Below, piece by piece: positions 1 through 31,244 of a stretch of DNA of 31,244 bases. The DNA lies in the IMG/VR virus record IMGVR_UViG_3300006733_000010. The stretch is one strand, 5' to 3'. Position numbers and translations under genes: made by a program. Numbering within the stretch: the stretch's first letter is position 1; every line of letters starts with the position of its first letter. The stretch is from a virus. The notes beneath the pieces are model-generated. The model saw nothing but the letters and a program-made list of their open reading frames with translations, did not search any database and was not told the origin of the DNA.

Positions 1-123
1 CCGATACCGACGTTGCCGTTCTGTTTCAGCCACATTACATTGGAATTATTTATGTCAAATCTGATGTATGCGTTAGTACCATATGCCCCATCTTCGTCGG
101 CAGCTAGGATCATAGCACCATGA
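1..123. repeat. Left copy of the exact 123-nt terminal overlap (circular junction or terminal redundancy)
   Basis: nt 1-123 are identical base for base to 31122-31244. The internal paralogous copy at 922-1044 differs (ccgatGccg, gcgtCag), so the two ends are the same locus. Confidence 0.9.
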
Positions 124-2237
124 CTATTTTGGATTTCATTATAGGAATCTCCGTCAGTATCGTTGAACCTGATAAAAGGTTGAGCTGATGCTATCTCTAT
201 TAGTCTGTTAGGTGATATTGTCCCGATGCCGACGTTGCCGTCATGGTGTAATACTAACTGATTAGTATTCGTTCCACCAGAAGCACCAGATTCTAAATAT
301 AAGTCAGCAGGAACATTTGTGCCACTTGCAATACCATTCTGTATTGCCTTAATAATAGCCCCATAAGTATAATCACTATCGCTATCTACTCCATGGAAAC
401 CAATAACCCCCAATAAATCACCATCATCAGTTTCTGCTTTCGTACCAATTGTGTCTGAATCAGATTTACGCAGAAAAAGATTCGACCGAGATGCCCCATC
501 ATCAAACGTATCAACAACTACATTAGATTGGGCATTACTGTCAGCGACATTTAATCCACCACCAGAGGCAATAGCTGGTGACGCAGTCCCGATGCCGACG
601 TTGCCGTCCTTATCAATTCTCATATATTCAGAACTACCGCCTGTGCCAGTCATAAACACAAGTTCTCCTATATTATCCCCTTCCTTCCTTACCGCTGCAA
701 TAGCCCCTATCTTATTTACTACAGCTTCATCGTCCTGGACATTAAATGTAAGTGCCGTGCCCCATCCGTTACCCATAGCAGCAACCTTCGTTGCTAAAAG
801 ACGAGCAGATGTCCATGCTACGTTAGCAGCAGCAGGTTCAAATCTTTCAAATAAAGCTGTTGTGCCAGCTCCACCCGTTGCAGCAGTCTGAACATGTAAT
901 AAACCAGCTGGCCCCGTTGTCCCGATGCCGACGTTGCCGTTCTGTTTCAGCCACATTACATTGGAATTATTTATGTCAAATCTGATGTATGCGTCAGTAC
1001 CATATGCCCCATCTTCGTCGGCAGCTAGGATCATAGCACCATGACTATTTTGGATTTCATTATAGGAATCTCCGTCAGTATCGTTGAACCTGATAAAAGG
1101 TTTAGCTGATGCTATCTCTATTAGTCTGTTAGGTGATATTGTCCCGATGCCGACATTGCCGTCTTTTATAACCATTCTATCGGCAAATGTACCATTTGCT
1201 ATCGTTCTAAACGAGAAGAAAGCATCTTCAGAACCATCAGTAGCATCGGCAATTGTTGTAAACACATTGGCATATTGTATGCGCTCTGCTGCTGAGTTGC
1301 GGCTGAAAAATGAGAATTTTCCTATCTCATCAGTTGCTGCTGGTGAAGCTGTATCTAACTCGAAAGTAAGCTCTGTTCCATATGGATCTGCATTTGTATT
1401 TTCAAGTTTTAAAATAGGGTTGGCTACGTCCGCTGTGCTTGATTGTAGATGTAGCATTGTATCGGGTGCTGTTGTCCCAATGCCGACGTTGCCAGTATCA
1501 ATTATCCTCATTTTTTCACTAAAAGCACCACTGGCCGTTATCGTATTAAATACTAAAGCACCATCCACGTTTCCCGCTGTCGCATCAGTAAGAACTACTC
1601 CTATATAACCTCCAGCCTCCATTGTTCCTTCGGTCTCTGTCTCTGCGACAAAACCAACCAAAGCACCAATACCATCAGCTCCTGCTCCACCATCATAAGA
1701 CCTTCTTACCGTAAAAGCATTGCGAGCTGTATTAGCATCAGTAGCATACTCACGTGTAAAACGTGAAGCACCAGCACTAACAACATCTAAAACAACCCCT
1801 GGTGCCGTTGTCCCAATGCCGACGTTGCCGCCATCATTAGCCAAGAACACATCAGTTCCAGAACGATTCCAAGCAGCAACTCCAGAAGGTGCGTTGGTTA
1901 TGTTGCTCCAGTCCAAAGCACCAACCAGATTTATAGCATAAACATTGTTCCATCTGAACACAGGGCTGCCTAAATCAAATGTACTGTCTACTGAAGGCAT
2001 CAATGTTCCATTGATCTGGGCAGTATTATACTGAGTTATGTTGCCTGAGAAGAAAATATCCTCAACCCATATCTCAGAAGCGTCAAATATAGATTTGTTT
2101 CTCAAGAATAAGTCAAAACCTTTCTGGAAATACAAAGAGTCTGCTCTGGCTTTGGTCAGCCAGTCCCAATAATCTGTAGCTCCAACTAAGGTAATCATAC
2201 TAATCATCATCACCGCCAAGATTATTGTTTTTTTCAT
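1..2237 (-). CDS. Giant modular fibre/adhesin, N-terminal ~745 codons; the gene crosses the window junction and continues at 31244..30014 (about 1114 aa in total)
   Basis: Absent from the ORF track because it has no stop inside the left edge. Hand check: ATG at 2237 is preceded by an in-frame TGA (2238-2240). There is no minus-strand stop in that frame from 2237 to 1. The frame is continuous with ORF 30014..31234 through the 123-nt end overlap. N-terminus MKKTIILAVMMISMITLVGATDYWDW...FDLGSPVFRWNNVY. The motif GNVGIGT (rc of gtcccgatgccgacgttgcc) recurs near 1, 221, 587, 918, 1140, 1472 and 1809. Confidence 0.8.
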   Translation of the reverse strand, partial: MKKTIILAVMMISMITLVGATDYWDWLTKARADSLYFQKGFDLFLRNKSIFDASEIWVEDIFFSGNITQYNTAQINGTLMPSVDSTFDLGSPVFRWNNVYAINLVGALDWSNITNAPSGVAAWNRSGTDVFLANDGGNVGIGTTAPGVVLDVVSAGASRFTREYATDANTARNAFTVRRSYDGGAGADGIGALVGFVAETETEGTMEAGGYIGVVLTDATAGNVDGALVFNTITASGAFSEKMRIIDTGNVGIGTTAPDTMLHLQSSTADVANPILKLENTNADPYGTELTFELDTASPAATDEIGKFSFFSRNSAAERIQYANVFTTIADATDGSEDAFFSFRTIANGTFADRMVIKDGNVGIGTISPNRLIEIASAKPFIRFNDTDGDSYNEIQNSHGAMILAADEDGAYGTDAYIRFDINNSNVMWLKQNGNVGIGTTGPAGLLHVQTAATGGAGTTALFERFEPAAANVAWTSARLLATKVAAMGNGWGTALTFNVQDDEAVVNKIGAIAAVRKEGDNIGELVFMTGTGGSSEYMRIDKDGNVGIGTASPAIASGGGLNVADSNAQSNVVVDTFDDGASRSNLFLRKSDSDTIGTKAETDDGDLLGVIGFHGVDSDSDYTYGAIIKAIQNGIASGTNVPADLYLESGASGGTNTNQLVLHHDGNVGIGTISPNRLIEIASAQPFIRFNDTDGDSYNEIQNSHGAMILAADEDGAYGTNAYIRFDINNSNVMWLKQNGNVGI
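922..1164. repeat. Intragenic direct repeat: 243 nt about 98% identical to nt 1-243 (one whole fibre module)
   Basis: Aligned by eye, I count 4 mismatches in 243 nt (a/g at position 6, gcgtTag/gcgtCag, aaggttGagc/aaggttTagc, gacGttgcc/gacAttgcc). Confidence 0.85.
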
Positions 2238-8160: not shown

Positions 8161-9150
8161 ATGAAATTCCCATGGAAAGGCGGCAGTTGGTATATAGACG
8201 GGTACTTAGCTAAGACATTGAACTCTCTCGTCTATAATGTAACATCAGATTGGGACTTTGTCCTATTGATCACTGGAGATAGAGGCGTTAGAGTCGGTAA
8301 AAGCGTATTGGCTATGACAGTATGCGCATATCTCGCCTACAAACTAGAGAAATTAAACCCGAATGCCTATTCTCTCGACAATATATTCTTTGATAATAAA
8401 GAAATGGTAAAGAAAGCTCAGACATTGCCTAAGTATTCTATCATTCATTACGACGAGGGAAGGGAAGGTTTAGCGGCGAGCAAAGCAATGAAGGCATTCC
8501 AACAAGACTTGTTAGATTTTTTTGCGGAATGCGGCCAGTTGAATCATATCTTTGTAATTGTATGCCCAGACTTCTTTGAACTCAAAGAAAATATATCAGT
8601 AGCTCGGAGTGAATGCCTTATTAACGTCTATAGAAAAGAAAAACTTATCGAGGAGAACGGACAACCAATTGTAAAGTTTTCTCGAGGGCAATTTGAATTC
8701 TTCAATAAGAAAAAGAAACAGATATTATTTGATATTGCAAAATCTCGACGACAAAAGAACTATAATCTTATCAAATGTAACTTTATCGGTTCGTTTACCA
8801 ATCAATATTGCGTCGATAAAGAAATTTACCTCAAGAAAAAAGAGGATAGCTTAAAACGATTTGCGGAGAGACATAAAGAGCAAGAGAGCCAATCAAAGGA
8901 CATTAATTTTAAGAAAGCATTTGGTATATATTATAAAAAGATGGGATATAAAACCCCAGAAGTTTTTGAACTAATGGAGAAGATAACTAACGAAGTTTAT
9001 GGCGAGAAACCATATGTTAAACGCTCTATCGACCGCATTTTTAAAGAATATAAGGATATTGCTACGGAAGCCAAGTTTAAAGACTCATTCGGTGACAATG
9101 CTACTAACATACTCAATAAACACCCCCTCAAGGGGGGGATAGTAATATAA
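8161..9150 (+). CDS. P-loop NTPase (ASCE type), 329 aa
   Basis: Walker A-like LITGDRGVRVGKSV, Walker B SIIHYDEG, then hydrophobic strand HIFVIVCP. Too short for a terminase nuclease domain. Confidence 0.7.
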   Translation: MKFPWKGGSWYIDGYLAKTLNSLVYNVTSDWDFVLLITGDRGVRVGKSVLAMTVCAYLAYKLEKLNPNAYSLDNIFFDNKEMVKKAQTLPKYSIIHYDEGREGLAASKAMKAFQQDLLDFFAECGQLNHIFVIVCPDFFELKENISVARSECLINVYRKEKLIEENGQPIVKFSRGQFEFFNKKKKQILFDIAKSRRQKNYNLIKCNFIGSFTNQYCVDKEIYLKKKEDSLKRFAERHKEQESQSKDINFKKAFGIYYKKMGYKTPEVFELMEKITNEVYGEKPYVKRSIDRIFKEYKDIATEAKFKDSFGDNATNILNKHPLKGGIVI

Positions 9151-10427: not shown

Positions 10428-11390
10428 ATGCTATTCGATAATGAACAATTAACCAAATATAAAGAATATCTACAGCTGCATGAGTACAGTACAAACATAA
10501 AGCAAAATTATGGCTATTATGCAAACAAATTGCTCAATAAAGACTTAACCCAGGAAACAATAGACCAATTATGCCAAAGAAAGCATAATGTTTACAGATC
10601 CTTCTTAAAAACAGTTATTGAATGCCTTAAACTAAGAGATCTAATGGTGCCTACTAAGAAATCAAGAGCTAAGAAGAAAGAGATAATCTATTTTACAGAA
10701 AAAGAAGTAAAAGCGATACTAGACAACACAAATGATAAAAGAATGGCCATAATCATTCGATTGATGTATGAATGCGGCTTAAGGATCAGCGAAGTTATGC
10801 AGTTAAAGGTAAAAAACTTTGATATGGTCAATAAGAAGGTTAAAGGTATTGGGAAAGGTAACAAAGAGTTCAATATGCTACTCCAGGACCATACGTATGC
10901 CTTAATCAAGCATTACATAGATAATAGGGTTATGGATTTAATCCTTGAGGATAGGCCAGAGTACTATGAACATATATTTTGGTGGCCTAAGATTAAACAC
11001 CAAAGGATTAAAGCATTGTATGAATTGAAGAAGCACATTAAAAACATTCTACCATACAAGCAGGATAATGAGGTGTTCAACCATGCCTTAAGGCACTCTT
11101 GTGGCACCCATCTAAGGCGTTTAGGCTTTGATTTAAGAGAGATACAGGAATATCTAAGGCATTCAAGGCTTGAGACTACAGCGGTTTATACAGCTGTTGA
11201 TACAGAAGAGTTGCAGCACAAAGCCCATAAGGCATTCGAGCAAGAACCATTGCCAAGTAACAACCTAGATACTCCACAACCTACTTTTCCAGTGGAAAAT
11301 AGAGAAAAAGAGAAAGACTTAAATAGTAGTACTACTCTAAATAGAACTAATGAGACTAAAGGTGGTATAAATGGAAGAAATGAAATGTAA
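10428..11390 (+). CDS. int: Tyrosine recombinase / integrase (XerC/D-like fold)
   Basis: Catalytic signature read directly: Arg in ECGLRISEV, Lys in GKGNKEF, HxxR in HALRHSCGTHL, His in LRHSRLETT, Tyr in TAVYTAV. AGGTGA SD. Confidence 0.9.
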   Translation: MLFDNEQLTKYKEYLQLHEYSTNIKQNYGYYANKLLNKDLTQETIDQLCQRKHNVYRSFLKTVIECLKLRDLMVPTKKSRAKKKEIIYFTEKEVKAILDNTNDKRMAIIIRLMYECGLRISEVMQLKVKNFDMVNKKVKGIGKGNKEFNMLLQDHTYALIKHYIDNRVMDLILEDRPEYYEHIFWWPKIKHQRIKALYELKKHIKNILPYKQDNEVFNHALRHSCGTHLRRLGFDLREIQEYLRHSRLETTAVYTAVDTEELQHKAHKAFEQEPLPSNNLDTPQPTFPVENREKEKDLNSSTTLNRTNETKGGINGRNEM

Positions 11391-14316: not shown

Positions 14317-14319
14317 TTC

Positions 14320-21053: not shown

Positions 21054-21381
21054 GCGTAACAAACTTATTGAGAAATTGGAGAAAGAGAAATCAAAAGGCA
21101 TGAAATATGTCATGGTAAGAACATACTCTGCAGGGGTTTTCGCAGGATTTCTTTTTAGAAAAGATGGAAAGGAAGTTACATTGAAAGACGCTAGAAGAAT
21201 ATGGTATTGGGATGGTGCGGCTAGTTTAAGCGAGTTAGCAACAAGGGGAACTTCAAAACCAGAATCGTGTAAATTTCCTGTAGAAGTTCCAGAAGTGATT
21301 TTGACAGAAGTTATAGAAATAATCCCAGTAAGCAAAGAAGCACAGAGGTCAATAAAAGGAGTCGGAGTTTGGAGTAAATAA
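21013..21381 (+). CDS. Hypothetical protein, 122 aa: coiled-coil N-terminus plus a conserved-looking core
   Basis: Track ORF. Core VRTYSAGVFAGFL..ARRIWYWDGAASLSELA. No family name assigned with confidence. Confidence 0.6.
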   Translation: MKDIEEQIKELDNKRNKLIEKLEKEKSKGMKYVMVRTYSAGVFAGFLFRKDGKEVTLKDARRIWYWDGAASLSELATRGTSKPESCKFPVEVPEVILTEVIEIIPVSKEAQRSIKGVGVWSK

Positions 21382-21382
21382 T

Positions 21383-21580
21383 ATGTCTTACGAAGATAAT
21401 AAGTCTGGCGATGGCTCTGGCTATGGCTCTGGCTCTGGCTATGGCTCTGGCTCTGGCTATGGCTCTGGCGATGGCTCTGGCTCTGGCTATGGCTCTGGCT
21501 ATGGCTCTGGCGATGGCGATGGCTCTGGCTCTGGCTCTGGCGATGGCGATGGCTATGGCTCTGGCTCTGGCTATGGCTAA
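21383..21580 (+). CDS. 65-aa low-complexity Gly/Ser/Tyr/Asp repeat protein
   Basis: MSYEDNKSGDGSGYGSGSGYGSGSGYGSGDGSGSGYGSGYGSGDGDGSGSGSGDGDGYGSGSGYG. Its ATG is 2 nt after the previous stop. Coding strand chosen by operon context. Confidence 0.5.
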   Translation: MSYEDNKSGDGSGYGSGSGYGSGSGYGSGDGSGSGYGSGYGSGDGDGSGSGSGDGDGYGSGSGYG

Positions 21581-22731: not shown

Positions 22732-22982
22732 ATAAGGTAATAGATGTGGGAGATATAAAGAAAGAGGACAAAGGAATCTACCAGCGAGCTTTATTGACTG
22801 GGCTAAGGGCAAACATATGGACACAATGGATTGTTGTCTTGTTGAGTGGGGCCACATTGTTTAGCGTGTTAGTGAGGAGTATAATATACAGAGGAGTATT
22901 CTTTATGCTGCTCTCATTGGTATGCCTGATGAGTTTGAACAGATGGGAAAAGAAATTAGGAGACCTAGAGAATTTGGACTAA
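22728..22982 (+). CDS. Two-TM membrane protein, 84 aa
   Basis: Track ORF with ATGA overlap. Confidence 0.55.
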   Translation: MNKVIDVGDIKKEDKGIYQRALLTGLRANIWTQWIVVLLSGATLFSVLVRSIIYRGVFFMLLSLVCLMSLNRWEKKLGDLENLD

Positions 22983-23521
22983 GGAAAATATTTGTTTTTT
23001 CTTTTTTATTGTTGGTTATACTAGATATAACCACGACAGGGATGGTCATCGAGAAACATTCAGAAGAAGGCGAGACAAACCCTTTGTTTTTGATGGGCAT
23101 TCCGATATGGATATTAGTCATAGTCAAAGCAGGTGGGGCACTGGCATTAGTGTGGTATTATCTGTTACGCTATAATGATATAAATATATTTAATAATTCA
23201 TACTTTAGGTATGCAATGGTTTGGTTTTTAGTGTTAATCACGTTTATCTATATGGGGATAGTGGTACAAAACATAAGGATATACAACTATGAATCAGTGA
23301 TACCATTACCAAAAGAAGAGAGGGCTGAGAAATATGTAGAACAGGTAGGTGATATGAAGGTGATGGAAAACCTAACGCCATACAAAAAAGGGTTTAAGGT
23401 TCCTTCTATAATCTCTCTTTTCATATTGAATATGATCCAGTTTATTGTATTCAAATCATTCGAGAAGGATAGGAAATGGCTAAGTTCAAAGCAAAACAGA
23501 TCATCGTTCCGCTTGTTATGA
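22922..23521 (+). CDS. Polytopic membrane protein, 199 aa
   Basis: Track ORF with 4-5 TM helices. Motif LDITTTGMVIEKHSEEGETNPLF. Confidence 0.6.
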   Translation: MPDEFEQMGKEIRRPREFGLRKIFVFSFLLLVILDITTTGMVIEKHSEEGETNPLFLMGIPIWILVIVKAGGALALVWYYLLRYNDINIFNNSYFRYAMVWFLVLITFIYMGIVVQNIRIYNYESVIPLPKEERAEKYVEQVGDMKVMENLTPYKKGFKVPSIISLFILNMIQFIVFKSFEKDRKWLSSKQNRSSFRLL

Positions 23522-23879: not shown

Positions 23880-24159
23880 AACAGAAGAAGAAATAGACAC
23901 AAAGAAAATAAATCCAAAATATGTAGAGTTAGGCTTGATAATACTAACAATAATCCTATTCATGTATGTCGGCATGGCTATTGGATACATACAAGGTTAC
24001 ACATATGTTAAAGAATTTAAAGAAAACTATGAGAAACAGCACTGTATCTGTCAGAATATTCCTATAAATAGTTTCGGCTTCTTTGACACCAACTTAACAG
24101 GAAAAGAAAAAAAAATAGTTCTTTTACCTTCTAGCCCTGAAAAAAGCAACCAGTCCTAA
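23860..24159 (+). CDS. Single-TM protein, 99 aa, last gene of the plus block
   Basis: Track ORF. Its 3' end overlaps the convergent minus gene by 36 nt. Confidence 0.5.
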   Translation: MEGRIDETEEEIDTKKINPKYVELGLIILTIILFMYVGMAIGYIQGYTYVKEFKENYEKQHCICQNIPINSFGFFDTNLTGKEKKIVLLPSSPEKSNQS

Positions 24160-24510
24160 CAATAAACTGCCAATAATCGTTATAATGATAATTGGCAACC
24201 AAGTTGGGATAGTGCTCATCGCTTCTTGAGTCTTTGAGGTTCCGTTCCAAGCAAATGTCATGCTTGCGTCAGTTGTATTACCAGCACCGCATGTCTGTCC
24301 ACCTGTTGAATTACAACAAAGTAAACCACTATCAGAACTGTTTATGCTATACCCTGTTGGACATAGCGAGCCTGATTGTGTGTCTATCACTTGGTCCTTC
24401 ATCTCAGCCATTATAACAAAACCAATAACCAATACTAAGGCTACTGCGATCACTGGTATTATTACCGCTTGGAGATTGCCCAGAACTTGGGCTTTCTTCT
24501 GCTTTTTCAT
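24124..24510 (-). CDS. Putative major capsid protein paralogue 3 (two hydrophobic helices, spindle-virus type), 128 aa
   Basis: Track ORF 24519 trimmed to the ATG behind TAGGTGA. N helix LQAVIIPVIAVALVLVIGFVIMAE; Cys/Gly/Thr-rich loop with NxS/T sequons; C helix WLPIIIITIIGSLLLGLVAFFRARR. Confidence 0.6.
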   Translation of the reverse strand: MKKQKKAQVLGNLQAVIIPVIAVALVLVIGFVIMAEMKDQVIDTQSGSLCPTGYSINSSDSGLLCCNSTGGQTCGAGNTTDASMTFAWNGTSKTQEAMSTIPTWLPIIIITIIGSLLLGLVAFFRARR

Positions 24511-24515
24511 TCTAG

Positions 24516-24815
24516 TCACCTAGCTCTGAAATAAGCAACCAAACCAAGCAATAAACTTCCGATCAATGTTATAATTATTATCGGCAACCATTGCGGCACA
24601 TCACTCATAGCTTCTTGGACCTGTCTGCTTGCATTACAGCCTATGCTTCCATTAGCAGATGCGTCAGAGGAACACTGTATTCCAGATGTGCTCTCTATCT
24701 GCGTTTGAGTTTCGGCTATAATCAAGAATCCAATCACTAATACGATTGCTACACCGATCAATGGTACAATAATGGCTTGGAGACCTGCAAGGGATTGACC
24801 CTTTTTAAGTTTCAT
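24516..24815 (-). CDS. Putative major capsid protein paralogue 2, 99 aa
   Basis: Track ORF 24887 trimmed to MKLKKGQSLAGLQAIIVPLIGVAIVLVIGFLIIAE behind TAGGAGA. C helix WLPIIIITLIGSLLLGLVAYFRAR. Confidence 0.6.
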   Translation of the reverse strand: MKLKKGQSLAGLQAIIVPLIGVAIVLVIGFLIIAETQTQIESTSGIQCSSDASANGSIGCNASRQVQEAMSDVPQWLPIIIITLIGSLLLGLVAYFRAR

Positions 24816-24842
24816 AGTTTTTTCTCCTATATAGTACCCTTT

Positions 24843-24871
24843 AAAAAAAGGGGTGGCCTTGCCCAGGCCAC
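24843..24871 (-). terminator. Intrinsic-terminator-like hairpin plus T-run between capsid paralogues 1 and 2
   Basis: On the minus strand: gtggcct-gggca-aggccac (7-bp GC-rich stem, plus coordinates 24853-24871), followed by cccttttttt. Confidence 0.5.
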
Positions 24872-24909
24872 TAGGTGAATTACCCAAAAGGTTAGCTAAT
24901 TGTCACTAT

Positions 24910-25179
24910 TTACCTTGCTCTGAAAAATGCAACAAGACCTAATAGCAATGCTCCGATAACTGTTATAACAATTATTGGTAGCCATCCAGGTATGTCATCC
25001 ATAGCCTGTTGAACTTGGTCTACTGCTTCAGAAGCGTTAGCGTCAGCTGTAACTGTTGAGTTTGCAGCAACTTCACTTAATATCAAAAATCCTACCACAA
25101 GAGTTATACCGATAGAAACCAATGCGATAACTACTGGTAGAAGTTGTTGTATGACTGCTTTTTTGTTCATAATCTTCAT
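24910..25179 (-). CDS. Putative major capsid protein paralogue 1, 89 aa
   Basis: Track ORF 25203 trimmed to MKIMNKKAVIQQLLPVVIALVSIGITLVVGFLILSE behind GGGGAGGTGA. C helix WLPIIVITVIGALLLGLVAFFRAR. Confidence 0.6.
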   Translation of the reverse strand: MKIMNKKAVIQQLLPVVIALVSIGITLVVGFLILSEVAANSTVTADANASEAVDQVQQAMDDIPGWLPIIVITVIGALLLGLVAFFRAR

Positions 25180-25203
25180 GTGTGTCACCTCCCCTGCTAA
25201 CAC

Positions 25204-25274
25204 AGGAATTATTTTACGAACTATGTAGAATCTTCAACCTAAAGAATAGTATATAAATATATGTGAACAAATCG
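25204..25274 (-). promoter_or_regulatory. Dedicated promoter region for the capsid paralogue cluster
   Basis: The only sizeable gap in the minus operon. The minus strand reads atatatttatatactatt (TATA-like) about 55 nt upstream of the GGGGAGGTGA SD. Confidence 0.45.
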
Positions 25275-25589
25275 TCAATCTTTACCTGAAAGGAAGAATA
25301 TGCTCAATGTCCAGACAACAAGGGTTATCCCAATATATTGTACCTCTAATATCCCTAAGGTTGACAGGAACACAGACATGATAAACGTTATAAAACTGCT
25401 TCCAGCCAATGATTTGCCAAAATGGGTTGTAGATACAAAGAAAGATATCATGCTGATCAAGAATATCGCCATCAATACTAATATCCCAAAGTAACCACTC
25501 ATAAGTTGAGAGTTTACATTCTGCATCAATGGGATTATCCCAGAGCTGTTTGCAACGATTGATATGTTATATGAGGGTGGTATTGGCAT
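25275..25589 (-). CDS. Three-TM membrane protein, 104 aa
   Basis: Track ORF. Confidence 0.6.
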   Translation of the reverse strand: MPIPPSYNISIVANSSGIIPLMQNVNSQLMSGYFGILVLMAIFLISMISFFVSTTHFGKSLAGSSFITFIMSVFLSTLGILEVQYIGITLVVWTLSIFFLSGKD

Positions 25590-25593: not shown

Positions 25594-26013
25594 TCACCTT
25601 GGTTGAAAACGTAAATATAAATGGATTAATGCAAATATTATTGCTGCCATCAATATCATCATGAAAATGTTTAATATGAACGATGGTATCCCTAATGAAA
25701 CAGCAAAGTTGTTCAGGAATTTTCCAGCTATCCTTACAGATTGCCATATCTTACCTAGTACACTGATTCCACCTATAAATATGTTGTCTAATGCTGTGTC
25801 TGAACTAGCTTCTGGTGCTTCTATCCCTTCTTTCATCTGATTGCTAACATTACCATGTAAATCCTGGATATCGGCTGTAAGATTATCTTTTGTGAATATA
25901 GTATCATTCAAATGCACACCATACTGTATCTCTTGGTCTGCTACTATATTCAATCCACTTACTATTATCACTCCTGCCAACAATATTGAGATTAGGTATG
26001 TATCGAATTTCAT
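25594..26013 (-). CDS. Membrane protein, 139 aa (N-terminal anchor, C-terminal TM)
   Basis: Track ORF with ATGA-type overlap to the upstream gene. Confidence 0.6.
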   Translation of the reverse strand: MKFDTYLISILLAGVIIVSGLNIVADQEIQYGVHLNDTIFTKDNLTADIQDLHGNVSNQMKEGIEAPEASSDTALDNIFIGGISVLGKIWQSVRIAGKFLNNFAVSLGIPSFILNIFMMILMAAIIFALIHLYLRFQPR

Positions 26014-28433
26014 TTTGCGTTATTAATCCTCCATATTGTTATAATCCCAACAACGATTAATGTTATGAACGAAACCCACGACATCTTGAATATATGCAAC
26101 ACTCTCATTATTCCTATCCCTGTTATACCAAATAGTATAGCAGGTATAGGGTGCCACAAAGCTATGTAGAATAGGGTTAACACGAATAAAAACGTTACAA
26201 ACACACCATAATGGTCTTTGTCGTCATAGATCCCTTCCATCGTGAGAAAACTCTGTTCTAATGAATCTAATATAAATTTATTCTTATTTATTATGACATA
26301 TGCTGTAGCAAGGAATCGTTTATCAAATACCTGTGATTCATTGCCGATATCATACAATATCTCTCCACTGTAAGTAGATGCACACCTTGCAGTTCCATTC
26401 AATTCTTTACTACCTGTCCTGTTTACTTCTTTTGCACTTAGACATATCTGGCTAAGTTTTGAATTAGGATCATACCATTGCAGCCTAAACTTTTTTATAG
26501 AACTATTTGAAAAAGATAGATTGTAGCTGATATCCTGATATTTGTCAAAATCAACATACCAATCGTCGGCTAACAGATTAATCTGAAAGTTTAATGTTGT
26601 TGATACCACATTTTGTTTGTCAGTCACCTTCTTTACTTCACCACCATATTTGATTGTAAAGCGGTAGTAAGCTGTGTTTAATATGAGATTAGCATAAGCA
26701 TTTCCGTCAAAGCTAGTCTCTAATATCTCCACTGTTTTGTATGAATTGGTTGCAATGCTGAACTTATCTATTATGATCACTGCCCCTTCCAGATCATTGC
26801 TAGAAGTATCCTTTACGTTGAGTGTTATTTGAGTAGTCCCTTCTGAAACGTAAAGGGATAATGTTTTGGTGATATTGCTAAGGTTTAATTCATCTGTGAA
26901 ATACTTAAAGTGTGTTATCCCGTCTGAAGTGAAATCTATGTTTGTAGAAGTGATCAATGTCGCATTTGTCGGGAATATACAGAACGATATGTTGCGTGTG
27001 TTTTTCACTATTGTGGAATAGTTCTGTTCAGAGATAGATGACTCCTGGTTATAAAAACTGAATAAGAATTCCATCGTCCCATTTATGATAGCATCAGTCG
27101 ATTCATTTATCAATAGAACTTTCAATGCTGTTGTATTTGTGTATATCCCTGAACAGTTAGTCAGTCTTGACCTGAACAATGTTACCTTGTCGCTTCCAAC
27201 CTTGCTGAAATTATCTTTGTGGGTCACATTTATTATTATCGATTCACCATAATCTTCAAACAATACGTCATTGAATACATTGGTGAATGACCCGTTGGTA
27301 TTGCTTATGCTGGTTATAGTGGTGCCTGTCTCATTCTTGAGGAAGAAAGTGGTTTGGTTGTAGTGTGTCTCGGTTATGCTTGTCTCTATAGTGATACTTC
27401 CTTCTCTGAATGTATCGCTTGCTTGAGGAGATGTTATGCTTACTATTGGTGGTGTATCAAGTGTGTATGTCCTGGTAGTAGCATTGCCTGTATTTACTCC
27501 ATCAAAACATGATACATTATAACTATAGGTCGAATCATTTATCAGAGTGACAGACAAGGTGGTAACATTAAATCTTTTTGTGCTTGCGTTAGACACTGGT
27601 TGGATACCTTCAACATAAAGGGTACAGTTTATTGAAGTATTATCCCCATCTTCATAGCTGAATCTTACATCCATTGTTGTTGAGGAATTAGTCGTAGCAT
27701 CTGGTGGATTTGTTATCGTTACTTTTGGGATAGGGGACATAACTGGGCATGTTGAATTTTCATAGATGAAGAGGCTGTCATAAAAGAATGAACCAGCTGA
27801 AAAGTCATTCTCTATCCTTGCTGTGTACATGCTTCTTCCTTCTACAGTAGTCGTTAGGTTGTAGATAGTTGTTCCATTTCCGTCGTAGCTCACATTTATG
27901 TCTGTTCCGTTTGAGACTGCCCTGAAACACATCCATGTTGGTGTTGTAGGCCTGATCATTGTTTGTTTCCATACGGCGTTATCATTCACACGATAGTGTG
28001 TTGCATCTTCACGTACTCCAACTGCAATCAGAAGATTCTCATTCTCATCATAGATATCCATATGTGTCGTCTGTTCACTTTGATTATCATAAAAACACCA
28101 CTTGATTGTGCCATTTATAGGGTCACTTAGATTAACTATTGGGTCTGGCATAGTTGCGCCATTAGTCACTAGGTGCATACTAAATTCAGAATTAGCATTT
28201 CCTTGTTCATTTGAATAGTTTGCTCTAGAACCAGCGATATCAATATTTAGCCAACCACCATCAGCCATCTTTAGATGATTAAATCCAACAGTATTATTCC
28301 AAGTTGTTTCTCCCGTATCCATACCTCCTTTAGATTGATTATAGTCGATCCAATCAGTAGAACAAAGCTCCGCATATATAAATGGCAACATCAAAACTGC
28401 CATTACAATTGGCAATAATATTGTCTTTTTCAT
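26010..28433 (-). CDS. 807-aa secreted, C-terminally membrane-anchored glycoprotein-like protein (candidate attachment/spike protein)
   Basis: Signal peptide MKKTILLPIVMAVLMLPFIYA. By my count more than 35 N-x-S/T sequons. Three C-terminal TM helices. Confidence 0.75.
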   Translation of the reverse strand: MKKTILLPIVMAVLMLPFIYAELCSTDWIDYNQSKGGMDTGETTWNNTVGFNHLKMADGGWLNIDIAGSRANYSNEQGNANSEFSMHLVTNGATMPDPIVNLSDPINGTIKWCFYDNQSEQTTHMDIYDENENLLIAVGVREDATHYRVNDNAVWKQTMIRPTTPTWMCFRAVSNGTDINVSYDGNGTTIYNLTTTVEGRSMYTARIENDFSAGSFFYDSLFIYENSTCPVMSPIPKVTITNPPDATTNSSTTMDVRFSYEDGDNTSINCTLYVEGIQPVSNASTKRFNVTTLSVTLINDSTYSYNVSCFDGVNTGNATTRTYTLDTPPIVSITSPQASDTFREGSITIETSITETHYNQTTFFLKNETGTTITSISNTNGSFTNVFNDVLFEDYGESIIINVTHKDNFSKVGSDKVTLFRSRLTNCSGIYTNTTALKVLLINESTDAIINGTMEFLFSFYNQESSISEQNYSTIVKNTRNISFCIFPTNATLITSTNIDFTSDGITHFKYFTDELNLSNITKTLSLYVSEGTTQITLNVKDTSSNDLEGAVIIIDKFSIATNSYKTVEILETSFDGNAYANLILNTAYYRFTIKYGGEVKKVTDKQNVVSTTLNFQINLLADDWYVDFDKYQDISYNLSFSNSSIKKFRLQWYDPNSKLSQICLSAKEVNRTGSKELNGTARCASTYSGEILYDIGNESQVFDKRFLATAYVIINKNKFILDSLEQSFLTMEGIYDDKDHYGVFVTFLFVLTLFYIALWHPIPAILFGITGIGIMRVLHIFKMSWVSFITLIVVGIITIWRINNAK

Positions 28434-28927
28434 TGTGCGGTCTGCCAGTTTTTATACATAACTACTGCTAATATAAATCCAATAACACCTATTATATAGG
28501 GTAGATACCCTATTATATTTGTTGTAAACGTCAATCGTTCCGCTACTGAAACCAGATCAGCATGGTTTGCATAAGCTAAATACAGGTTACTAAATACTCC
28601 GCTAAGATAGATTATGATTATCCATATTATTATGTAGAACACAAAGAACACTGGATGGAACCTAACTAAGGCTGCAAGAACTAATGCTACTATACAGAGG
28701 CCGATCATAAATAGTAAGATCGAGTTATCTATAACCCCTGGGTACATATCATTTAATTCAGTAAATGCTGCCTTTCCTCTATCGTTTACTTCACTACTTG
28801 CCTGCATCTTACTGTTTATTGAATCAGAAACCTTAAATATTATAAGCAATGAGATTCCAACTACGACTAATGAAACGAATATGAAGACCAAATCCTGGAT
28901 GCTTCCTTTCTTATCTTTTCTTGCCAA
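28430..28927 (-). CDS. Polytopic membrane protein, 165 aa
   Basis: Track ORF with 4-5 TM helices. Confidence 0.65.
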   Translation of the reverse strand: MARKDKKGSIQDLVFIFVSLVVVGISLLIIFKVSDSINSKMQASSEVNDRGKAAFTELNDMYPGVIDNSILLFMIGLCIVALVLAALVRFHPVFFVFYIIIWIIIIYLSGVFSNLYLAYANHADLVSVAERLTFTTNIIGYLPYIIGVIGFILAVVMYKNWQTAQ

Positions 28928-29096
28928 ACATTATCTCCTCCAATAAGTTATGCACTTGTACTGTGATTACCCTCATACTTCTTTTCTTTCCATAAGTACT
29001 TATCGGTTTCACCTTGCCTTGCTTCTCTAATATCTCAATAAACCTTGGCGCATCTTTGCGGAATACTGGGTCTATCCTTGCATTTATCGATTTCAT
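28911..29096 (-). CDS. Small basic soluble protein, 61 aa
   Basis: Track ORF, overlap-coupled on both sides. Confidence 0.5.
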   Translation of the reverse strand: MKSINARIDPVFRKDAPRFIEILEKQGKVKPISTYGKKRSMRVITVQVHNLLEEIMFGKKR

Positions 29097-29758
29097 TCAA
29101 ACCCCATCTGCCTGTCTTGTTTCTTTTGATTCCACATGTGTAGGGCCATCCATCCAAATCTGAGTACTACTATGATCATGGCTACATATATCGCCCAGTT
29201 GATAAGCCATAAAAACCTGAATATCTCTCTTGTCACTTCTATCCCTGCGTTATCTGCTATAGTAGATAACATAGCTGTGCTTAGAGACAATAAAAACAAT
29301 CCTAATATGATACACAATCCCTTGAGTGTAGTATTTAGTATCTCATTATTGCTAAAGTTCTTTAATAGTCTTGGTAAAAAGAAAACGCCTGCTGTTATAA
29401 GCAATACAAATATGATTATAGATAAGCTTGCCATATTATCCACACTCTCCACAATTATACTTGCTGAATCCCCTGAACTCATATTCAGTAGATAACTCCC
29501 CTTGGCTGTATAATTGAACGTTATATTGCACCGACCAGTCGTGGAGTAATTGTCCATTGAAAATGTGTCTAATAATGTAGGTGTACTGTCGTACAATCCT
29601 ACAGTATATGTTCCACAATCGTTTGGATACTCCCAAGAAGATATCATCATACAAGGGATATCTTTCTTCTCCACCACACTTTTGCATTCTTTTAAACCTA
29701 ACGTTATCGGAAACAACAACAGTGCCATCATCAATATTGTTAAACATTTTAGTTTCAT
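29093..29758 (-). CDS. Secreted/membrane protein, 221 aa, with sequons and 3 C-terminal TM helices
   Basis: Signal peptide MKLKCLTILMMALLLFPITLG. Sequons NYS, NIT, NYT, NMS. Confidence 0.65.
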   Translation of the reverse strand: MKLKCLTILMMALLLFPITLGLKECKSVVEKKDIPCMMISSWEYPNDCGTYTVGLYDSTPTLLDTFSMDNYSTTGRCNITFNYTAKGSYLLNMSSGDSASIIVESVDNMASLSIIIFVLLITAGVFFLPRLLKNFSNNEILNTTLKGLCIILGLFLLSLSTAMLSTIADNAGIEVTREIFRFLWLINWAIYVAMIIVVLRFGWMALHMWNQKKQDRQMGFE

Positions 29759-30021
29759 TTTGCATTTTCAATTTTCTGGATATTTGATTCCCTTGTGATG
29801 TGGGTATATTCTATGCTTCCTATCAAAACCTTTGAAACTCTTAGTTCGTCTATCAATTCAGTTGATAGTACCTCAAATGTATCTATCCCCCTTACTGATA
29901 ACCTGTTCGTTAAATATCTTTCTACCTTTTCGTCATCCATCAATTGGTCTTGTGCTGTTGTTGTTATCGTCAACAACAAGATAAACAATAGTATTATTAT
30001 TGCTTTTTTGATGTTAATCAC
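29755..30021 (-). CDS. Small secreted protein, 88 aa
   Basis: Signal peptide MINIKKAIIILLFILLLTITTTAQ. Overlaps the fibre stop by 8 nt. Confidence 0.55.
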   Translation of the reverse strand: MINIKKAIIILLFILLLTITTTAQDQLMDDEKVERYLTNRLSVRGIDTFEVLSTELIDELRVSKVLIGSIEYTHITRESNIQKIENAK

Positions 30022-31244
30022 CTATCCTAGTTAAAACAAGATTATGGGTACTAATCATTATACTCTTTGTCGGATCTGCTTCATCTTCTACTTGGATGTT
30101 TACAGTATCTCCAACTTTCAAATCAAACGCACAATGAATTGAAAAACCAATACTAGATGCTAAACCATCTACATGAGCATAACAATTTTCCTCATTTATA
30201 GATTTATCAAAATTCTCAGCTATTACAATCCCATAAGCACCACCAGCAGCAGTTCCAGCACCCGAAAAATGCGCATCTGCTTTATAGGTTCCAGCCACTT
30301 GAGCAGTTAAATAACTTCCACCATCAGTCTGATTAGCATCAGTATAAGTAAAACCATTTAACTTAGTATAAGTCATGTTAGTAACATTATAATATACTCC
30401 AGATGATGGGAAAGTTACAGTCATAGGGGTATCCCAACCAAACTTTTCACCCATTTGACCATAGATAAGATTACCTCCTGTTATGTTTCCAGTGTAATTG
30501 ATATGTCCAATAACAGTAAGTCTTTCATTTGGTGTAGTTGTTCCTGCCCCAACATTCCCAGTTCCACTATCTATATATAACCTGCTCGTTCCGCCTCTGA
30601 TGTCTGTTGAGCTTGCTCCTGTCCTTAAGTCCAAGTCACCGACTTGGATGCCTAGTACGCCTATTCCTGAACCGTCTACTCCTAGTACTAATGTGTCTGT
30701 TCCAGCATCTGTTATTCTCATCATCGGATTAGAGTCATTTTGTATGTGTAGACAGGCTGCTGGTGCGTTTGTTCCCATCCCTATCTGTCCTTTGTCGTTT
30801 ACTACAAAGTCATTGTTTGCGAAACTTGCTGCATGTGCTATCTTAAATACAGAATCACTTGCATCGTAACCTACTTTATGTTCATTTTTATCTGTAGTGT
30901 ATGTAAAGAAAGCATCTTTGTCGCTTGCTCCGCTTTCCAGTTCAAATACTGTATGTTGGTCAGAGCCGTTGATATGAAGCCCGAATGCTCCTGATGGAGA
31001 AGGACTTGAAGTTCCTATCCCGACGTTTCCAGTTGTTCCGTCTACAAATAATGTATCTGATACATTGAGTGCTGACTGTCCAGTATGTGTTACTTGGAGT
31101 TTATATGTTGGTTTCTTTGTTCCGATACCGACGTTGCCGTTCTGTTTCAGCCACATTACATTGGAATTATTTATGTCAAATCTGATGTATGCGTTAGTAC
31201 CATATGCCCCATCTTCGTCGGCAGCTAGGATCATAGCACCATGA
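30014..31244 (-). CDS. C-terminal part of the same fibre/adhesin (track ORF 30014..31234 starts at an internal Met; the frame stays open to the window end)
   Basis: The three codons upstream of the track Met (..HGA-MILAADEDG) are open and identical to nt 114-123. More GNVGIGT/GNVGAGT motifs follow. The last ~150 aa (..AGTYKADAHFSGAG..YGIVIAEN..FDLKVGDTVNIQV..LTRIGD) look like a beta-sandwich head domain. Confidence 0.8.
   Translation of the reverse strand, partial: HGAMILAADEDGAYGTNAYIRFDINNSNVMWLKQNGNVGIGTKKPTYKLQVTHTGQSALNVSDTLFVDGTTGNVGIGTSSPSPSGAFGLHINGSDQHTVFELESGASDKDAFFTYTTDKNEHKVGYDASDSVFKIAHAASFANNDFVVNDKGQIGMGTNAPAACLHIQNDSNPMMRITDAGTDTLVLGVDGSGIGVLGIQVGDLDLRTGASSTDIRGGTSRLYIDSGTGNVGAGTTTPNERLTVIGHINYTGNITGGNLIYGQMGEKFGWDTPMTVTFPSSGVYYNVTNMTYTKLNGFTYTDANQTDGGSYLTAQVAGTYKADAHFSGAGTAAGGAYGIVIAENFDKSINEENCYAHVDGLASSIGFSIHCAFDLKVGDTVNIQVEDEADPTKSIMISTHNLVLTRIGD
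31122..31244. repeat. Right copy of the exact 123-nt terminal overlap
   Basis: Identical to nt 1-123. Confidence 0.9.

What the first reader, a model, noticed from the sequence alone, without database searches (positions are those of the whole stretch)
24124..25274. Three tandem paralogous two-helix hydrophobic proteins with their own promoter and an internal attenuator: spindle-shaped-virus-type capsid module in a 31-kb low-GC element
The three ORFs (89, 99 and 128 aa after start trimming) share three parts: an N-terminal helix (..LQA[VI]I[IV]P[VL]I.VA[LI]VLVIGF.I.AE), a variable Ser/Thr/Cys/Asn loop with sequons, and a nearly identical C-terminal helix (WLPIII[IV]T.IG.LLLGLVA[FY]FRAR). This is the architecture established for the major capsid proteins of spindle-shaped archaeal viruses (SSV1 VP1/VP3, His1 VP21). 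They lie at the 3' end of the structural operon, behind the only internal gap (25204-25274, TATA-like box plus strong SD). A GC-rich hairpin plus T-run follows paralogue 1, which would give graded expression. The rest of the genome fits this reading: an integrase, a lone P-loop NTPase, a large terminal fibre, and no terminase, portal or HK97 signatures. Together these suggest an undescribed spindle-type or pleomorphic virus lineage with an unusually large genome.
Basis: partly seen in the sequence, partly recalled or inferred. Interest (0 to 1): 0.7.

Follow-up and report, generated by a model that had tools for sequence, protein, structure and literature searches.

The report
Three coat-protein genes, new archaeal virus
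Three adjacent genes for small two-helix membrane proteins, in a complete 31-kb circular archaeal virus genome, are most likely its coat proteins, and they mark a widespread marine relative of the spindle-shaped viruses that I found in none of the collections or papers I could check.

Summary
Three tandem paralogues (89, 99 and 128 aa) lie on the minus strand at 24124-25179. Each has an N-terminal hydrophobic helix, a variable loop with Asn-X-Ser/Thr sequons, and a nearly invariant C-terminal helix. A GC-rich hairpin plus T-run follows paralogue 1. It is conserved in five divergent genomes, with compensatory changes in 4 of 7 pairs.

The window is a complete genome with a 123-nt direct terminal repeat (31,121 bp unique). 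The paralogues belong to a large unannotated metagenomic family: 882 clusters at 50% identity.

Pfam, PHROGs, PDB sequences and Foldseek give nothing specific. Direct profile comparison with SSV1 and His1 capsid proteins is not significant. An indirect link exists. The genome's only ATPase is 30% identical to that of an IMG/VR contig that carries a canonical SSV1/His1-type capsid protein. That protein aligns end to end with the window family (hhalign 72%; 0 of 100 shuffles reach the score).

No HK97, double jelly-roll, portal or terminase signal was found.

Best reading: coat proteins of a putatively spindle-shaped archaeal virus lineage for which I found no description, with expression graded by an attenuator as in SSV1. 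The genome size is not unusual. The host is unknown.

The parts
24910..25179 (-). Paralogue P1 (89 aa). It has the shortest loop and is the most conserved of the three, so it is the proposed major coat protein.
   Evidence: ORF and sequence. Orthologues in L004, L006 and L008 are 78-83% identical, against 42-56% for P2 and P3. AF2 predicts a hairpin with helices 8-39 and 47-88, pLDDT 80.6.
24516..24815 (-). Paralogue P2 (99 aa). The loop has 2 Cys and 2 sequons. Proposed minor coat variant.
   Evidence: P0001. Orthologues are 48-56% identical.
24124..24510 (-). Paralogue P3 (128 aa). The loop is long, with 4 Cys and several sequons. Its start lies 5 nt after the P2 stop and its AGGTGA overlaps that stop, so translation is probably coupled.
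   Evidence: P0002. Orthologues are 42-54% identical. In relatives, long-loop members always have an even Cys count.
25250..25257 (-). TATA-box-like TTTATATA, 71 nt upstream of the P1 start. Proposed promoter of the three-gene unit.
   Evidence: One search finds 10 copies in the window against 4.4 +/- 2.5 expected. The position follows. A function is inferred only, because the upstream regions of relatives align poorly.
25185..25192 (-). Shine-Dalgarno-like GGAGGTGA, 5 nt before the P1 ATG.
   Evidence: GGAGG is conserved at this position in L004, L006, L008 and L020.
24843..24871 (-). Conserved GC-rich hairpin (7 bp stem, 5-nt loop) followed by CCC and T7, between P1 and P2. Proposed partial terminator (attenuator).
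   Evidence: It is conserved in five genomes, and 4 of 7 pairs show compensatory changes.
24102..24115 (-). T-rich run (T9 C T4) starting 9 nt after the P3 stop. Proposed end of the transcription unit.
   Evidence: Read directly. Termination at oligo-T tracts is established knowledge for archaea. Not tested here.
25275..25589 (-). 104-aa multi-helix membrane protein immediately upstream. It belongs to the conserved module.
   Evidence: 40-45% identical orthologues at the same position in L004 and L006.
25594..26013 (-). 139-aa membrane protein of the conserved module.
   Evidence: Orthologues in L004 and L006.
26010..28433 (-). 807-aa protein with a signal peptide, many sequons and C-terminal membrane helices. 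Proposed adhesin or terminal-structure protein.
   Evidence: Translation. Orthologues of 806-893 aa carry Pfam Laminin_G_3. The gene order 807-139-104-P1-P2-P3 parallels SSV1 C792 (end filament)-B78-C166-VP1-VP3-VP2.
28430..28927 (-). 165-aa membrane protein, a conserved core gene.
   Evidence: 53-58% identical in L004, L006 and L008.
29093..29758 (-). 221-aa protein with a signal peptide and membrane helices, a conserved core gene.
   Evidence: 39-58% identical in L004, L006, L008 and L019.
30014..31244 (-). C-terminal part of the 1114-aa fibre-like protein. The gene continues at 1-2237 across the circular junction.
   Evidence: PHROG phrog_9942 'tail fiber', 3.1e-14. It contains GNVGIGT repeats.
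1..2237 (-). N-terminal part of the same 1114-aa fibre-like gene.
8161..9150 (+). The only P-loop ATPase (329 aa). Proposed morphogenesis ATPase shared with spindle-shaped viruses.
   Evidence: 30% identical over about 270 aa to the ATPase of L023, which encodes a canonical spindle capsid protein. Weak Pfam Zot hits in 6 of 40 family members. hhalign to His1 ORF16 gives 68% around Walker A. Foldseek returns only generic AAA+/RecA folds and no terminase.
10428..11390 (+). Tyrosine recombinase (integrase).
   Evidence: Pfam Phage_integrase 2.6e-29. phrog_1 9.8e-33.
31122..31244 (.). Direct terminal repeat, identical to 1-123. It shows that the genome is complete and circular or terminally redundant.

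Best explanation
P1, P2 and P3 are the coat (capsid) proteins of a complete 31.1-kb archaeal dsDNA virus that belongs to the assemblage of spindle-shaped viruses.

Proposed mechanism:
1. Each protein enters the host membrane as a helical hairpin. The basic N- and C-termini sit in the cytoplasm. The loop is outside, where it is N-glycosylated and, in P2 and P3, disulfide-bonded.
2. During non-lytic extrusion the hairpins polymerise around the DNA. The basic ends face the genome and the glycosylated turns face outward. This step is probably driven by the single ATPase, which resembles Zot and His1 ORF16.
3. P1 is the bulk protein. P2 and P3 are minor variants with enlarged exposed loops.
4. The ratio is set at transcription. 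One promoter upstream of P1 drives all three genes, and a conserved hairpin plus T-run after P1 stops most transcripts. SSV1 is annotated in the same way: transcript T1 ends just after VP1, while T2 continues through VP3 and VP2.

Shown here: the paralogy, the hairpin fold, the sequon, Cys and charge pattern, the conservation of the module and of the RNA hairpin, the shared ATPase, and the profile link through L023.

Inferred: incorporation into virions, the shape of the particle, glycosylation, partial termination and the extrusion mechanism.
For: 1. Architecture. AF2 predicts a two-helix hairpin. All 184 parsed members have at least one N-X-S/T in the loop. The Cys count is even in 87 and odd in 2. 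Both termini carry about +2 net charge.
2. Bridge to canonical capsid proteins. L023's 76-aa protein matches the fusellovirus/halspivirus alignment at 94.8% (E 5e-8, 67 columns) and SSV1 VP1 by BLASTP at 3.8e-11. The window family matches that protein end to end at 72% (score 30.4, 69 columns). The null from 100 within-segment shuffles has mean 14.0, sd 3.1 and maximum 23.7.
3. Shared ATPase. L023's is 30% identical (E about 1e-34). The family gives weak Zot hits and a His1 ORF16 match around Walker A.
4. Synteny with SSV1: a large end-filament or adhesin gene, two small genes, then the tandem capsid genes.
5. The module is conserved, with 2-3 paralogues, in contigs of 26-45 kb from several sediment and ocean metagenomes. 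No member lies on a contig longer than 45 kb.
6. P1 is far more conserved (78-83%) than P2 and P3 (42-56%).
7. The hairpin plus T-run after P1 is kept in five genomes, with compensatory changes in 4 of 7 pairs. The SSV1 record annotates the T1 termination site just inside VP3.
8. No other capsid, portal or terminase candidate appears in Pfam or PHROGs or in PDB sequence searches.
Against: - Direct comparison with fusellovirus and halspivirus capsid alignments is not significant (20-24% on helix 1 only).
- Foldseek and PDB searches are uninformative, because a helical hairpin is a generic fold.
- The similarity to the Nipumfusiviridae capsid family is not robust. It gives 81.9% with one profile. 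With a broader profile it drops to 67% on helix 1 only, and 1 of 60 shuffles beats it.
- Profile scores between hydrophobic proteins are prone to inflation.
- No particle, proteome or transcript data exist.
- The 205-, 221- and 222-aa proteins were not modelled, so a small unconventional capsid protein cannot be excluded.
- The loops, especially those of P3-type members (up to about 110 residues), are much longer than in characterised spindle capsid proteins.
Confidence: 0.6

Rival explanations
1. The three proteins are structural, but they are membrane proteins of an enveloped pleomorphic (pleolipovirus-like) or vesicle-like particle. In that case they do not form a spindle capsid lattice, and the 807-aa protein would be the spike or fusogen.
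For: The architecture is equally compatible: small hydrophobic proteins, a large signal-peptide protein with a C-terminal membrane anchor, one NTPase, an integrase and many membrane proteins in the module. Direct homology to SSV1 and His1 capsid proteins is not significant.
Against: The end-to-end profile match is to a canonical spindle capsid protein (L023), and the ATPase is shared with that contig. No Pfam or PHROG hit to pleolipovirus proteins appeared. The 31-45 kb genomes are two to six times those of pleolipoviruses (7-17 kb, from my own knowledge).
Confidence: 0.2
2. The paralogues are non-structural membrane proteins of the virus, for example for egress, superinfection exclusion or host-membrane remodelling. 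The true capsid protein would be another, unrecognised gene.
For: No direct evidence of virion incorporation. Several core proteins (205, 166, 100, 222 and 930 aa) have no assignable function.
Against: - P1 is strongly conserved (about 80% between genomes whose other core proteins are 30-58% identical).
- It has a strong SD and its own promoter-like element.
- A conserved attenuator implies a need for stoichiometric control.
- The genes sit at the end of the structural block, next to the adhesin.
- There is a profile link to a bona fide capsid protein.
Confidence: 0.1
3. The element is a plasmid or integrative element. The hairpin proteins would then be pilin-like subunits, either VirB2/TrbC-type conjugative pilins or type IV pilin-like proteins with a class III signal peptide.
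For: Weak sub-threshold Pfam TrbC/VirB2 hits in 9 of 65 members (best E 0.0074). A conserved basic KK[GA] motif precedes helix 1. One homologue is labelled UPF0333 by JGI.
Against: - There is no VirB4, coupling protein or relaxase, and the only ATPase is 329 aa.
- A polar stretch of 5-8 residues separates KK[GA] from the hydrophobic helix, unlike class III signal peptides.
- Type IV pilins lack a C-terminal membrane helix.
- tblastn of the ATPase finds nothing in 72,556 plasmids.
- The genome has a fibre-like gene with a phage tail-fibre PHROG hit and a direct terminal repeat.
Confidence: 0.04

Closest known systems
Fuselloviridae VP1/VP3 (SSV1) with transcripts T1 and T2
   Same: - Small proteins with two hydrophobic helices and a sequon just before helix 2.
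- Tandem paralogues at the end of the structural block, after a roughly 800-aa end-filament gene and two small genes.
- In SSV1 a termination site is annotated just after the first paralogue, giving a short and a long transcript from one promoter. This matches the hairpin plus T-run after P1.
- Circular genome with an integrase.
   Different: - No significant direct profile similarity.
- Three paralogues rather than two.
- Longer, Cys-containing loops.
- No VP2 homologue was found.
- The genome is twice the size.
- The integrase is a conventional 320-aa tyrosine recombinase. Whether attP lies inside it, as in SSV1, was not tested.
- The host is mesophilic or marine rather than Sulfolobales.
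Halspiviridae His1 VP21 and ORF16 ATPase
   Same: The same hairpin plan, with the motif W..LP(I/L) at the start of helix 2. The ATPase family aligns with His1 ORF16 around an atypical Walker A (hhalign 68%, 40 columns).
   Different: His1 has a single capsid gene, a linear 14.5-kb genome and a protein-primed polymerase. The capsid profile comparison is not significant.
Nipumfusiviridae (ICTV 2025; Ni et al. 2024, PMC10866085)
   Same: - Complete 27-38 kb genomes from marine and soil metagenomes with GC 33-40%.
- An 89-aa hairpin capsid protein whose turn is 10-20 residues longer than in classical spindle viruses and carries sequons.
- A large adhesin with C-terminal membrane helices next to it, an integrase and one ATPase.
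- The capsid profiles resemble each other weakly (81.9%, 74 columns).
   Different: - None of 62 window proteins hits NMM1 (BK067790) at E 1e-3.
- The ATPases are unrelated at profile level (1.6%).
- The capsid similarity is not robust to the choice of profile.
- Nipumfusiviridae have one such capsid gene plus a different two-helix neighbour, not three paralogues.
- The ICTV membership criteria are therefore not met.
Wyrdviridae (Asgard archaeal spindle-type viruses; bioRxiv 10.1101/2021.07.29.453957)
   Same: - One or two His1-like capsid paralogues and an adhesin.
- A block of unknown conserved genes.
- An ATPase most similar to the Zot/pI morphogenesis ATPase but without a membrane helix.
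- Variable replication modules.
- Marine sediment origin.
The window's ATPase family also gives weak Zot hits and lacks a membrane helix. Relatives carry different replication genes: Prim-Pol/D5 in L019 and MCM in L020.
   Different: Wyrdvirus genomes are 20 kb or less, and their capsid proteins match His1 directly. I could not fetch wyrdvirus sequences, so no direct comparison was made.
Itzamnaviridae (ANME-1 'lemon-shaped' viruses; PMC9894754)
   Same: Circular genomes with direct terminal repeats, in two size classes (25.6 and 48.9 kb). The larger class adds a replication and metabolism arm. There are two capsid paralogues. They come from marine sediment and carry PAPS-related auxiliary genes. 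The window's group also has genomes of about 26-31 kb and about 45 kb, and L019 has a PAPS reductase.
   Different: GBV303 (IMGVR_UViG_3300021499_000010) was not recovered by the pattern scans of IMG/VR with the window's capsid or ATPase alignments. Its records are not in the held phage collection. The relationship is therefore untested, not excluded.

Membership tests
Spindle-shaped-virus major capsid protein (SSV1 VP1/VP3, His1 VP21 type) | Small protein (about 70-130 aa) made of two hydrophobic alpha-helices joined by a turn (helical hairpin) | tested here: met
   AF2 gives helices 8-39 and 47-88 with pLDDT 80.6. The same plan is seen in 184 parsed relatives.
Spindle-shaped-virus major capsid protein (SSV1 VP1/VP3, His1 VP21 type) | Detectable sequence or profile homology to VP1/VP3/VP21 | tested here: inconclusive
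   Direct hhalign gives 20-24% (helix 1 only) to the fusellovirus alignments and under 1% to halspivirus. There are no Pfam, PHROG or PDB hits. The indirect link runs through the L023 capsid protein. It scores 94.8% to the canonical alignment and 72% to the window family over 69 columns, and 0 of 100 shuffles reach that score.
Spindle-shaped-virus major capsid protein (SSV1 VP1/VP3, His1 VP21 type) | N-glycosylation sequons in the exposed turn, basic residues at the termini | tested here: met
   184 of 184 members have at least one sequon in the loop. Net charge is about +2 at each end. Actual glycosylation was not tested.
Spindle-shaped-virus major capsid protein (SSV1 VP1/VP3, His1 VP21 type) | Encoded in a morphogenetic module with a large adhesin or end-filament gene, in a genome with the conserved ATPase and no HK97 or jelly-roll capsid | tested here: met
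   The order 807 aa-139-104-P1-P2-P3 parallels SSV1. The ATPase is shared with the canonical-capsid contig L023. No other capsid, portal or terminase hit was found.
Spindle-shaped-virus major capsid protein (SSV1 VP1/VP3, His1 VP21 type) | Dominant protein of purified lemon-shaped virions | not testable with these tools
   This needs particles, electron microscopy and mass spectrometry.
[quoted passage not shown] | Shared homologous proteins, including the ATPase, and at least 30% AAI | tested here: not met
   tblastn of 62 window proteins against NMM1 BK067790 and part of UViG_3300001450_000008 gives no hit at 1e-3. ATPase hhalign is 1.6% and BLASTP finds nothing.
[quoted passage not shown] | Homologous major capsid protein | tested here: inconclusive
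   hhalign A2 against A3 gives 81.9%, 74 columns, and 0 of 60 shuffles reach the score. A broader profile gives 67% on helix 1 only, and 1 of 60 shuffles scores higher.
Thaspiviridae, Wyrdviridae, Itzamnaviridae, Eurekaviridae | Gene sharing with exemplar genomes (NSV1 MK570053, wyrdviruses, OP880254/OP413839, PQ167755) | not tested
   The three exemplar records I tried (MK570053, OP880254, PQ167755) are absent from the held collection. I made no attempt to fetch OP413839 or any wyrdvirus sequence. The pattern scans of IMG/VR did not return GBV303.
Caudoviricetes (HK97 fold) or Varidnaviria (double jelly-roll) | HK97-fold or jelly-roll capsid protein with a terminase/portal or an FtsK-HerA packaging ATPase | tested here: not met
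   No such Pfam or PHROG hit for any ORF of 200 aa or more. The ATPase model matches generic AAA+/RecA/KaiC folds, not terminases. Caveat: only two proteins could be modelled.
Archaeal type IV pilin (class III signal peptide) | [KR]-G/A cleavage site directly followed by the hydrophobic helix, and no C-terminal membrane helix | tested here: not met
   KK[GA] is conserved, but a polar stretch of 5-8 residues follows it, and a second membrane helix ends the protein. There is no Pfam Class_IIIsignal hit.
TrbC/VirB2 conjugative pilin | Pfam TrbC above threshold, next to VirB4-type machinery | tested here: not met
   9 of 65 members match, best E 0.0074, all below the gathering score. There is no VirB4 or relaxase in the genome.

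The most novel reading that the evidence does not exclude
This genome is a founding member of an undescribed, family-level and globally distributed lineage of archaeal viruses found in marine sediments, oxygen-poor water and the open ocean. Its coat would be built from up to three hairpin paralogues whose stoichiometry is set by a conserved RNA hairpin attenuator. Its capsid family (at least 882 clusters at 50% identity) would be missing from Pfam and PHROGs, so a sizeable share of 'hypothetical two-helix proteins' in marine metagenomes would in fact be spindle-type capsid genes. The enlarged, disulfide-bonded, glycosylated loops of P2 and P3 would be a new way of decorating such capsids.
Probability: 0.45. 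Interest if true: 0.6.

Novelty: new variant of a known kind. Interest (0 to 1): 0.45.

Why it matters
[quoted passage not shown] A capsid-like family this large, with a conserved 15-gene module and complete genomes of 26-45 kb, would add a major group to the known virome of marine archaea. It would also give a usable marker (the profile of alignment A2) for finding more members.

The conserved attenuator between paralogues is a concrete, testable example of how an archaeal virus could set the ratio of its coat proteins. Contig L023 gives a sequence bridge between divergent capsid families that otherwise look unrelated.

If the reading is wrong, the family is still one of the more abundant uncharacterised membrane-protein families on marine mobile elements.

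Tried and rejected
- **Pfam and PHROGs** on the three paralogues and on 65 relatives gave only scattered sub-threshold hits to unrelated membrane families, such as LapA, DUF2976, inovirus Gp8 coat and TrbC. I treat these as hydrophobic noise.
- **PDB sequence profile search** found nothing relevant.
- **Foldseek** of the hairpin model against PDB and BFVD gave no match with E of 0.001 or better. A two-helix hairpin is too generic a fold.
- **tblastn** of P1, P2 and the ATPase against 50,697 phage and archaeal-virus records and 72,556 plasmids found nothing.
- **hhalign** against single His1 and SSV1 sequences and against a 12-sequence canonical alignment was not significant.
- **Host assignment:**
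  - The GTDB scan with the capsid alignment found nothing.
  - The scan with the ATPase found one 28-kb contig binned in an 'uncultured Methanosarcinales' MAG. This is weak evidence, since it rests on binning only.
  - The MCM of a 45-kb relative is 26-30% identical to MCMs of many archaeal lineages, which is not informative.
  - SD usage is higher than in a Nipumfusiviridae genome. This is suggestive only.
- **Nipumfusiviridae membership** was rejected.
- **Pilin ideas** (class III signal peptide, VirB2) were rejected.
- **Fetching exemplar genomes** NSV1, Itzamnaviridae and Methanosarcina spindle-shaped virus 1 failed, because they are not in the held collection.
Full report
**The observation.** The three ORFs exist as described, on the minus strand. 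P1 is 24910-25179 (89 aa), P2 is 24516-24815 (99 aa) and P3 is 24124-24510 (128 aa). Public gene calls give the same lengths. Their alignment has 34 invariant columns, and almost the whole C-terminal helix (WLPII.IT.IG.LLLGLVA.FRAR) is conserved. P3 starts 5 nt after the P2 stop, and its AGGTGA overlaps that stop. P1 has GGAGGTGA 5 nt before its ATG and TTTATATA 71 nt upstream. Between P1 and P2 lies the hairpin GTGGCC-TGGGC-AAGGCCAC followed by CCCT7.

**The window as a whole.** The first and last 123 nt are identical, so this is a complete circular or terminally redundant genome with 31,121 bp of unique sequence. The 'terminal fibre' is one 1114-aa gene spanning the junction. The same virus occurs in three independent public data sets.

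The minus-strand block from 7468, across the junction, to 24124 holds these genes in order:
- a 930-aa protein with KPSY repeats
- proteins of 205, 100, 166 and 222 aa
- the fibre
- proteins of 88, 221, 61 and 165 aa
- an 807-aa signal-peptide protein with C-terminal membrane helices
- membrane proteins of 139 and 104 aa
- P1, P2 and P3

The plus-strand block holds a 329-aa P-loop ATPase, a tyrosine integrase (Pfam 2.6e-29) and about 45 small genes.

**Relatives.** A profile of the three paralogues finds 571 proteins in the 90%-clustered database. An exhaustive HMMER search finds 882 clusters at 50% identity (296 with E of 1e-10 or better). All are unannotated and metagenomic, and they fall into three length classes of about 90, 125 and 170 aa.

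Contigs of 26-45 kb carry the same module with two or three tandem paralogues. They come from marine sediment and other metagenomes: L004, L006, L008, L019 and L020. The shared core has about 15 genes, including the ATPase. Replication genes differ between relatives. L019 has Prim-Pol/D5 and L020 has MCM plus a DEAD-type helicase, while the window has none that I could recognise. No member lies on a contig longer than 45 kb. This fits free viral genomes.

**The proteins.** AlphaFold2 predicts a two-helix hairpin for P1 (pLDDT 80.6). Across 184 parsed relatives:
- every loop has at least one N-X-S/T sequon
- the Cys count is even in 87 and odd in 2
- both termini carry about +2 net charge

This pattern predicts an N-in/C-in membrane topology with an exposed, glycosylated and disulfide-bonded loop. 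P1 orthologues are 78-83% identical between genomes whose P2 and P3 orthologues are 42-56% identical.

**The hairpin.** Five divergent genomes keep a 7-bp GC-rich stem followed by a T-run at the same place after P1. Four of the seven pairs show compensatory changes, and a conserved TTCACC lies just upstream. In the SSV1 record, transcripts T1 and T2 start at one promoter. T1 ends just past VP1, while T2 runs through VP3 and VP2. Graded expression of the paralogues is therefore a reasonable inference, but it is not shown.

**Is it a spindle-virus capsid protein?** Standard tests are silent. Pfam, PHROGs and PDB sequences give only sub-threshold hits to assorted membrane families. Foldseek finds nothing, because the fold is generic. 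Direct hhalign against an alignment of ten fusellovirus VP1/VP3 sequences plus His1 VP21 and the BLv25 capsid protein is not significant.

The comparison with the capsid family of Nipumfusiviridae, the closest described group in lifestyle, gave mixed results:
- With alignment A2 it gave 81.9% probability over 74 columns. Within-segment shuffles gave 18 +/- 4 with a maximum of 28.3, against an observed score of 34.8.
- With a broader profile only helix 1 aligned (67%), and 1 of 60 shuffles scored higher.
I therefore treat that link as weak.

The informative result came from the ATPase. A scan of IMG/VR with the ATPase alignment returned contig L023 (UViG_3300029286_000005, 40.8 kb). Its ATPase is 30% identical to the window's over about 270 residues (E about 1e-34). 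L023 encodes a 76-aa protein next to a 730-aa signal-peptide protein. That 76-aa protein is a canonical spindle capsid protein. It scores 94.8% against the fusellovirus/halspivirus alignment, BLASTP 3.8e-11 to SSV1 VP1 and 2.6e-4 to His1 VP21. The window family aligns with it end to end (72%, score 30.4, 69 columns). The null from 100 within-segment shuffles is 14.0 +/- 3.1 with a maximum of 23.7.

Two independent links therefore tie the window's lineage to bona fide spindle-type viruses: a shared morphogenesis-type ATPase and a transitive capsid profile match. The gene order of adhesin, two small genes, then tandem capsid genes also matches SSV1.

**The ATPase.** The model is confident (pLDDT 88.3) and matches generic AAA+/RecA/KaiC/BfpD folds, not terminases. 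Six of 40 family members give weak Zot (pI) hits. The region around the atypical Walker A aligns with His1 ORF16 at 68%. This resembles what was reported for wyrdviruses.

**Search for another capsid.** No HK97, jelly-roll, portal or terminase signal appeared in Pfam or PHROGs for any larger ORF, nor in PDB sequence searches. Structure prediction was capped at two jobs, so the core proteins of 205-222 aa remain unmodelled.

**Comparison with known groups.**
- The genome is not a member of Nipumfusiviridae by the ICTV criteria. There are no shared proteins at BLAST level and the ATPases are unrelated.
- Its size is ordinary for recently described putative spindle viruses: 27-38 kb, 25.6-48.9 kb and 72.6 kb.
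- I could not fetch the thaspivirus, itzamnavirus or Methanosarcina-virus exemplars I tried, and I did not attempt wyrdvirus sequences. 'Undescribed' therefore rests on three things: no hit in the held collections, no pick-up of GBV303 in the IMG/VR scans, and no matching description in the papers I searched.

**Host.** The host is archaeal. The evidence is the MCM in a relative, the sequon-rich secreted proteins and the TATA-like elements. One relative is binned in a Methanosarcinales MAG. SD use is frequent: a 5-mer lies upstream of 19 of 61 genes, against a 3.4% background and 4 of 54 genes in a Nipumfusiviridae genome. Neither observation is decisive.

**Verdict.** The capsid reading is the best-supported explanation (about 0.6) but remains indirect. 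The attenuator is well supported as a conserved structure, and its function is inferred. This is a new variant of a known kind. Interest is moderate.

Noticed in passing
window 12600-12920 and 13987-14323: Arrays of 5-nt-period GGCNN pentamers, organised as about six units. Each unit ends in GGCAAAACATAGCAAGGCAAGGTATTTT. The arrays flank two genes: 12943-13506 (187 aa, phrog_4652 4.5e-14) and 13491-13973 (160 aa). GC rises locally to 0.41-0.46. The 'ORFs' with ARRG/AWLG repeats are translations of these arrays. This could be an origin or iteron region, or a packaging region.
   Followed up: partly
window 4676-7468 (-), repeats at 4919-5152: The 930-aa core protein has a C-terminal run of about 25 (K)PSY tetrapeptide repeats followed by a very basic tail. 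It resembles adhesive or low-complexity proteins. The only PDB hits are to repeat proteins. A 900-aa protein sits at the equivalent position, next to the ATPase operon, in L019, but tblastn found no similarity to it at E 1e-3.
   Followed up: partly
window 21383-21580 (+): (TCTGGC)x29 hexanucleotide array encoding a 65-aa GSGYGS repeat peptide.
   Followed up: no
window 1-123 and 31122-31244: Exact 123-nt direct terminal repeat, so the genome is complete. The ENA copy of the same virus is a 34,839-bp contig, about 3.7 kb longer than the unique length. I did not examine why.
   Followed up: partly
window 22922-23521 (+): A 199-aa membrane protein conserved in all relatives, with a weak Pfam DUF5658 match (E 1.6e-3, below threshold). 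SSV1 gp18 is annotated as a DUF5658 family protein. This may be a further shared gene with fuselloviruses.
   Followed up: partly
window 21013-21381 (+): A 122-aa protein with a strong Pfam DUF6948 match (4.3e-32). It is the only confident domain hit among the small plus-strand genes.
   Followed up: no
window 7617-7626: Palindromic TTTATATAAA in the 298-nt divergent intergenic region between the structural block (930-aa gene, minus strand) and the ATPase operon (plus strand). It is a candidate bidirectional promoter.
   Followed up: no
L023 (IMGVR_UViG_3300029286_000005) 2438-2668 (-) and 6209-6556 (+): A 40.8-kb, 29.7% GC viral contig with two canonical SSV1/His1-like capsid paralogues and an ATPase 30% identical to the window's. 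I did not identify which described family, if any, it belongs to.
   Followed up: partly
L019 (CAZFJK010000010.1) and L020 (BAEC19-1 scaffold_2462): Relatives carry different replication and auxiliary modules. L019 has a Prim-Pol/D5_N/DUF5906 primase-helicase, a PAPS reductase and a 202-aa integrase. L020 has an MCM plus a DEAD/XPD-like helicase.
   Followed up: partly
N-termini of P1-P3 and relatives (window 25150-25179, 24790-24815, 24485-24510): A nearly invariant basic KK[GA] motif lies a few residues before helix 1. Fusellovirus VP1 precursors have K-[GA]-E at the junction between the pro-region and the mature protein (sequences). I recall that SSV1 VP1 is cleaved there, but I did not verify this. 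The motif may be a processing site.
   Followed up: no
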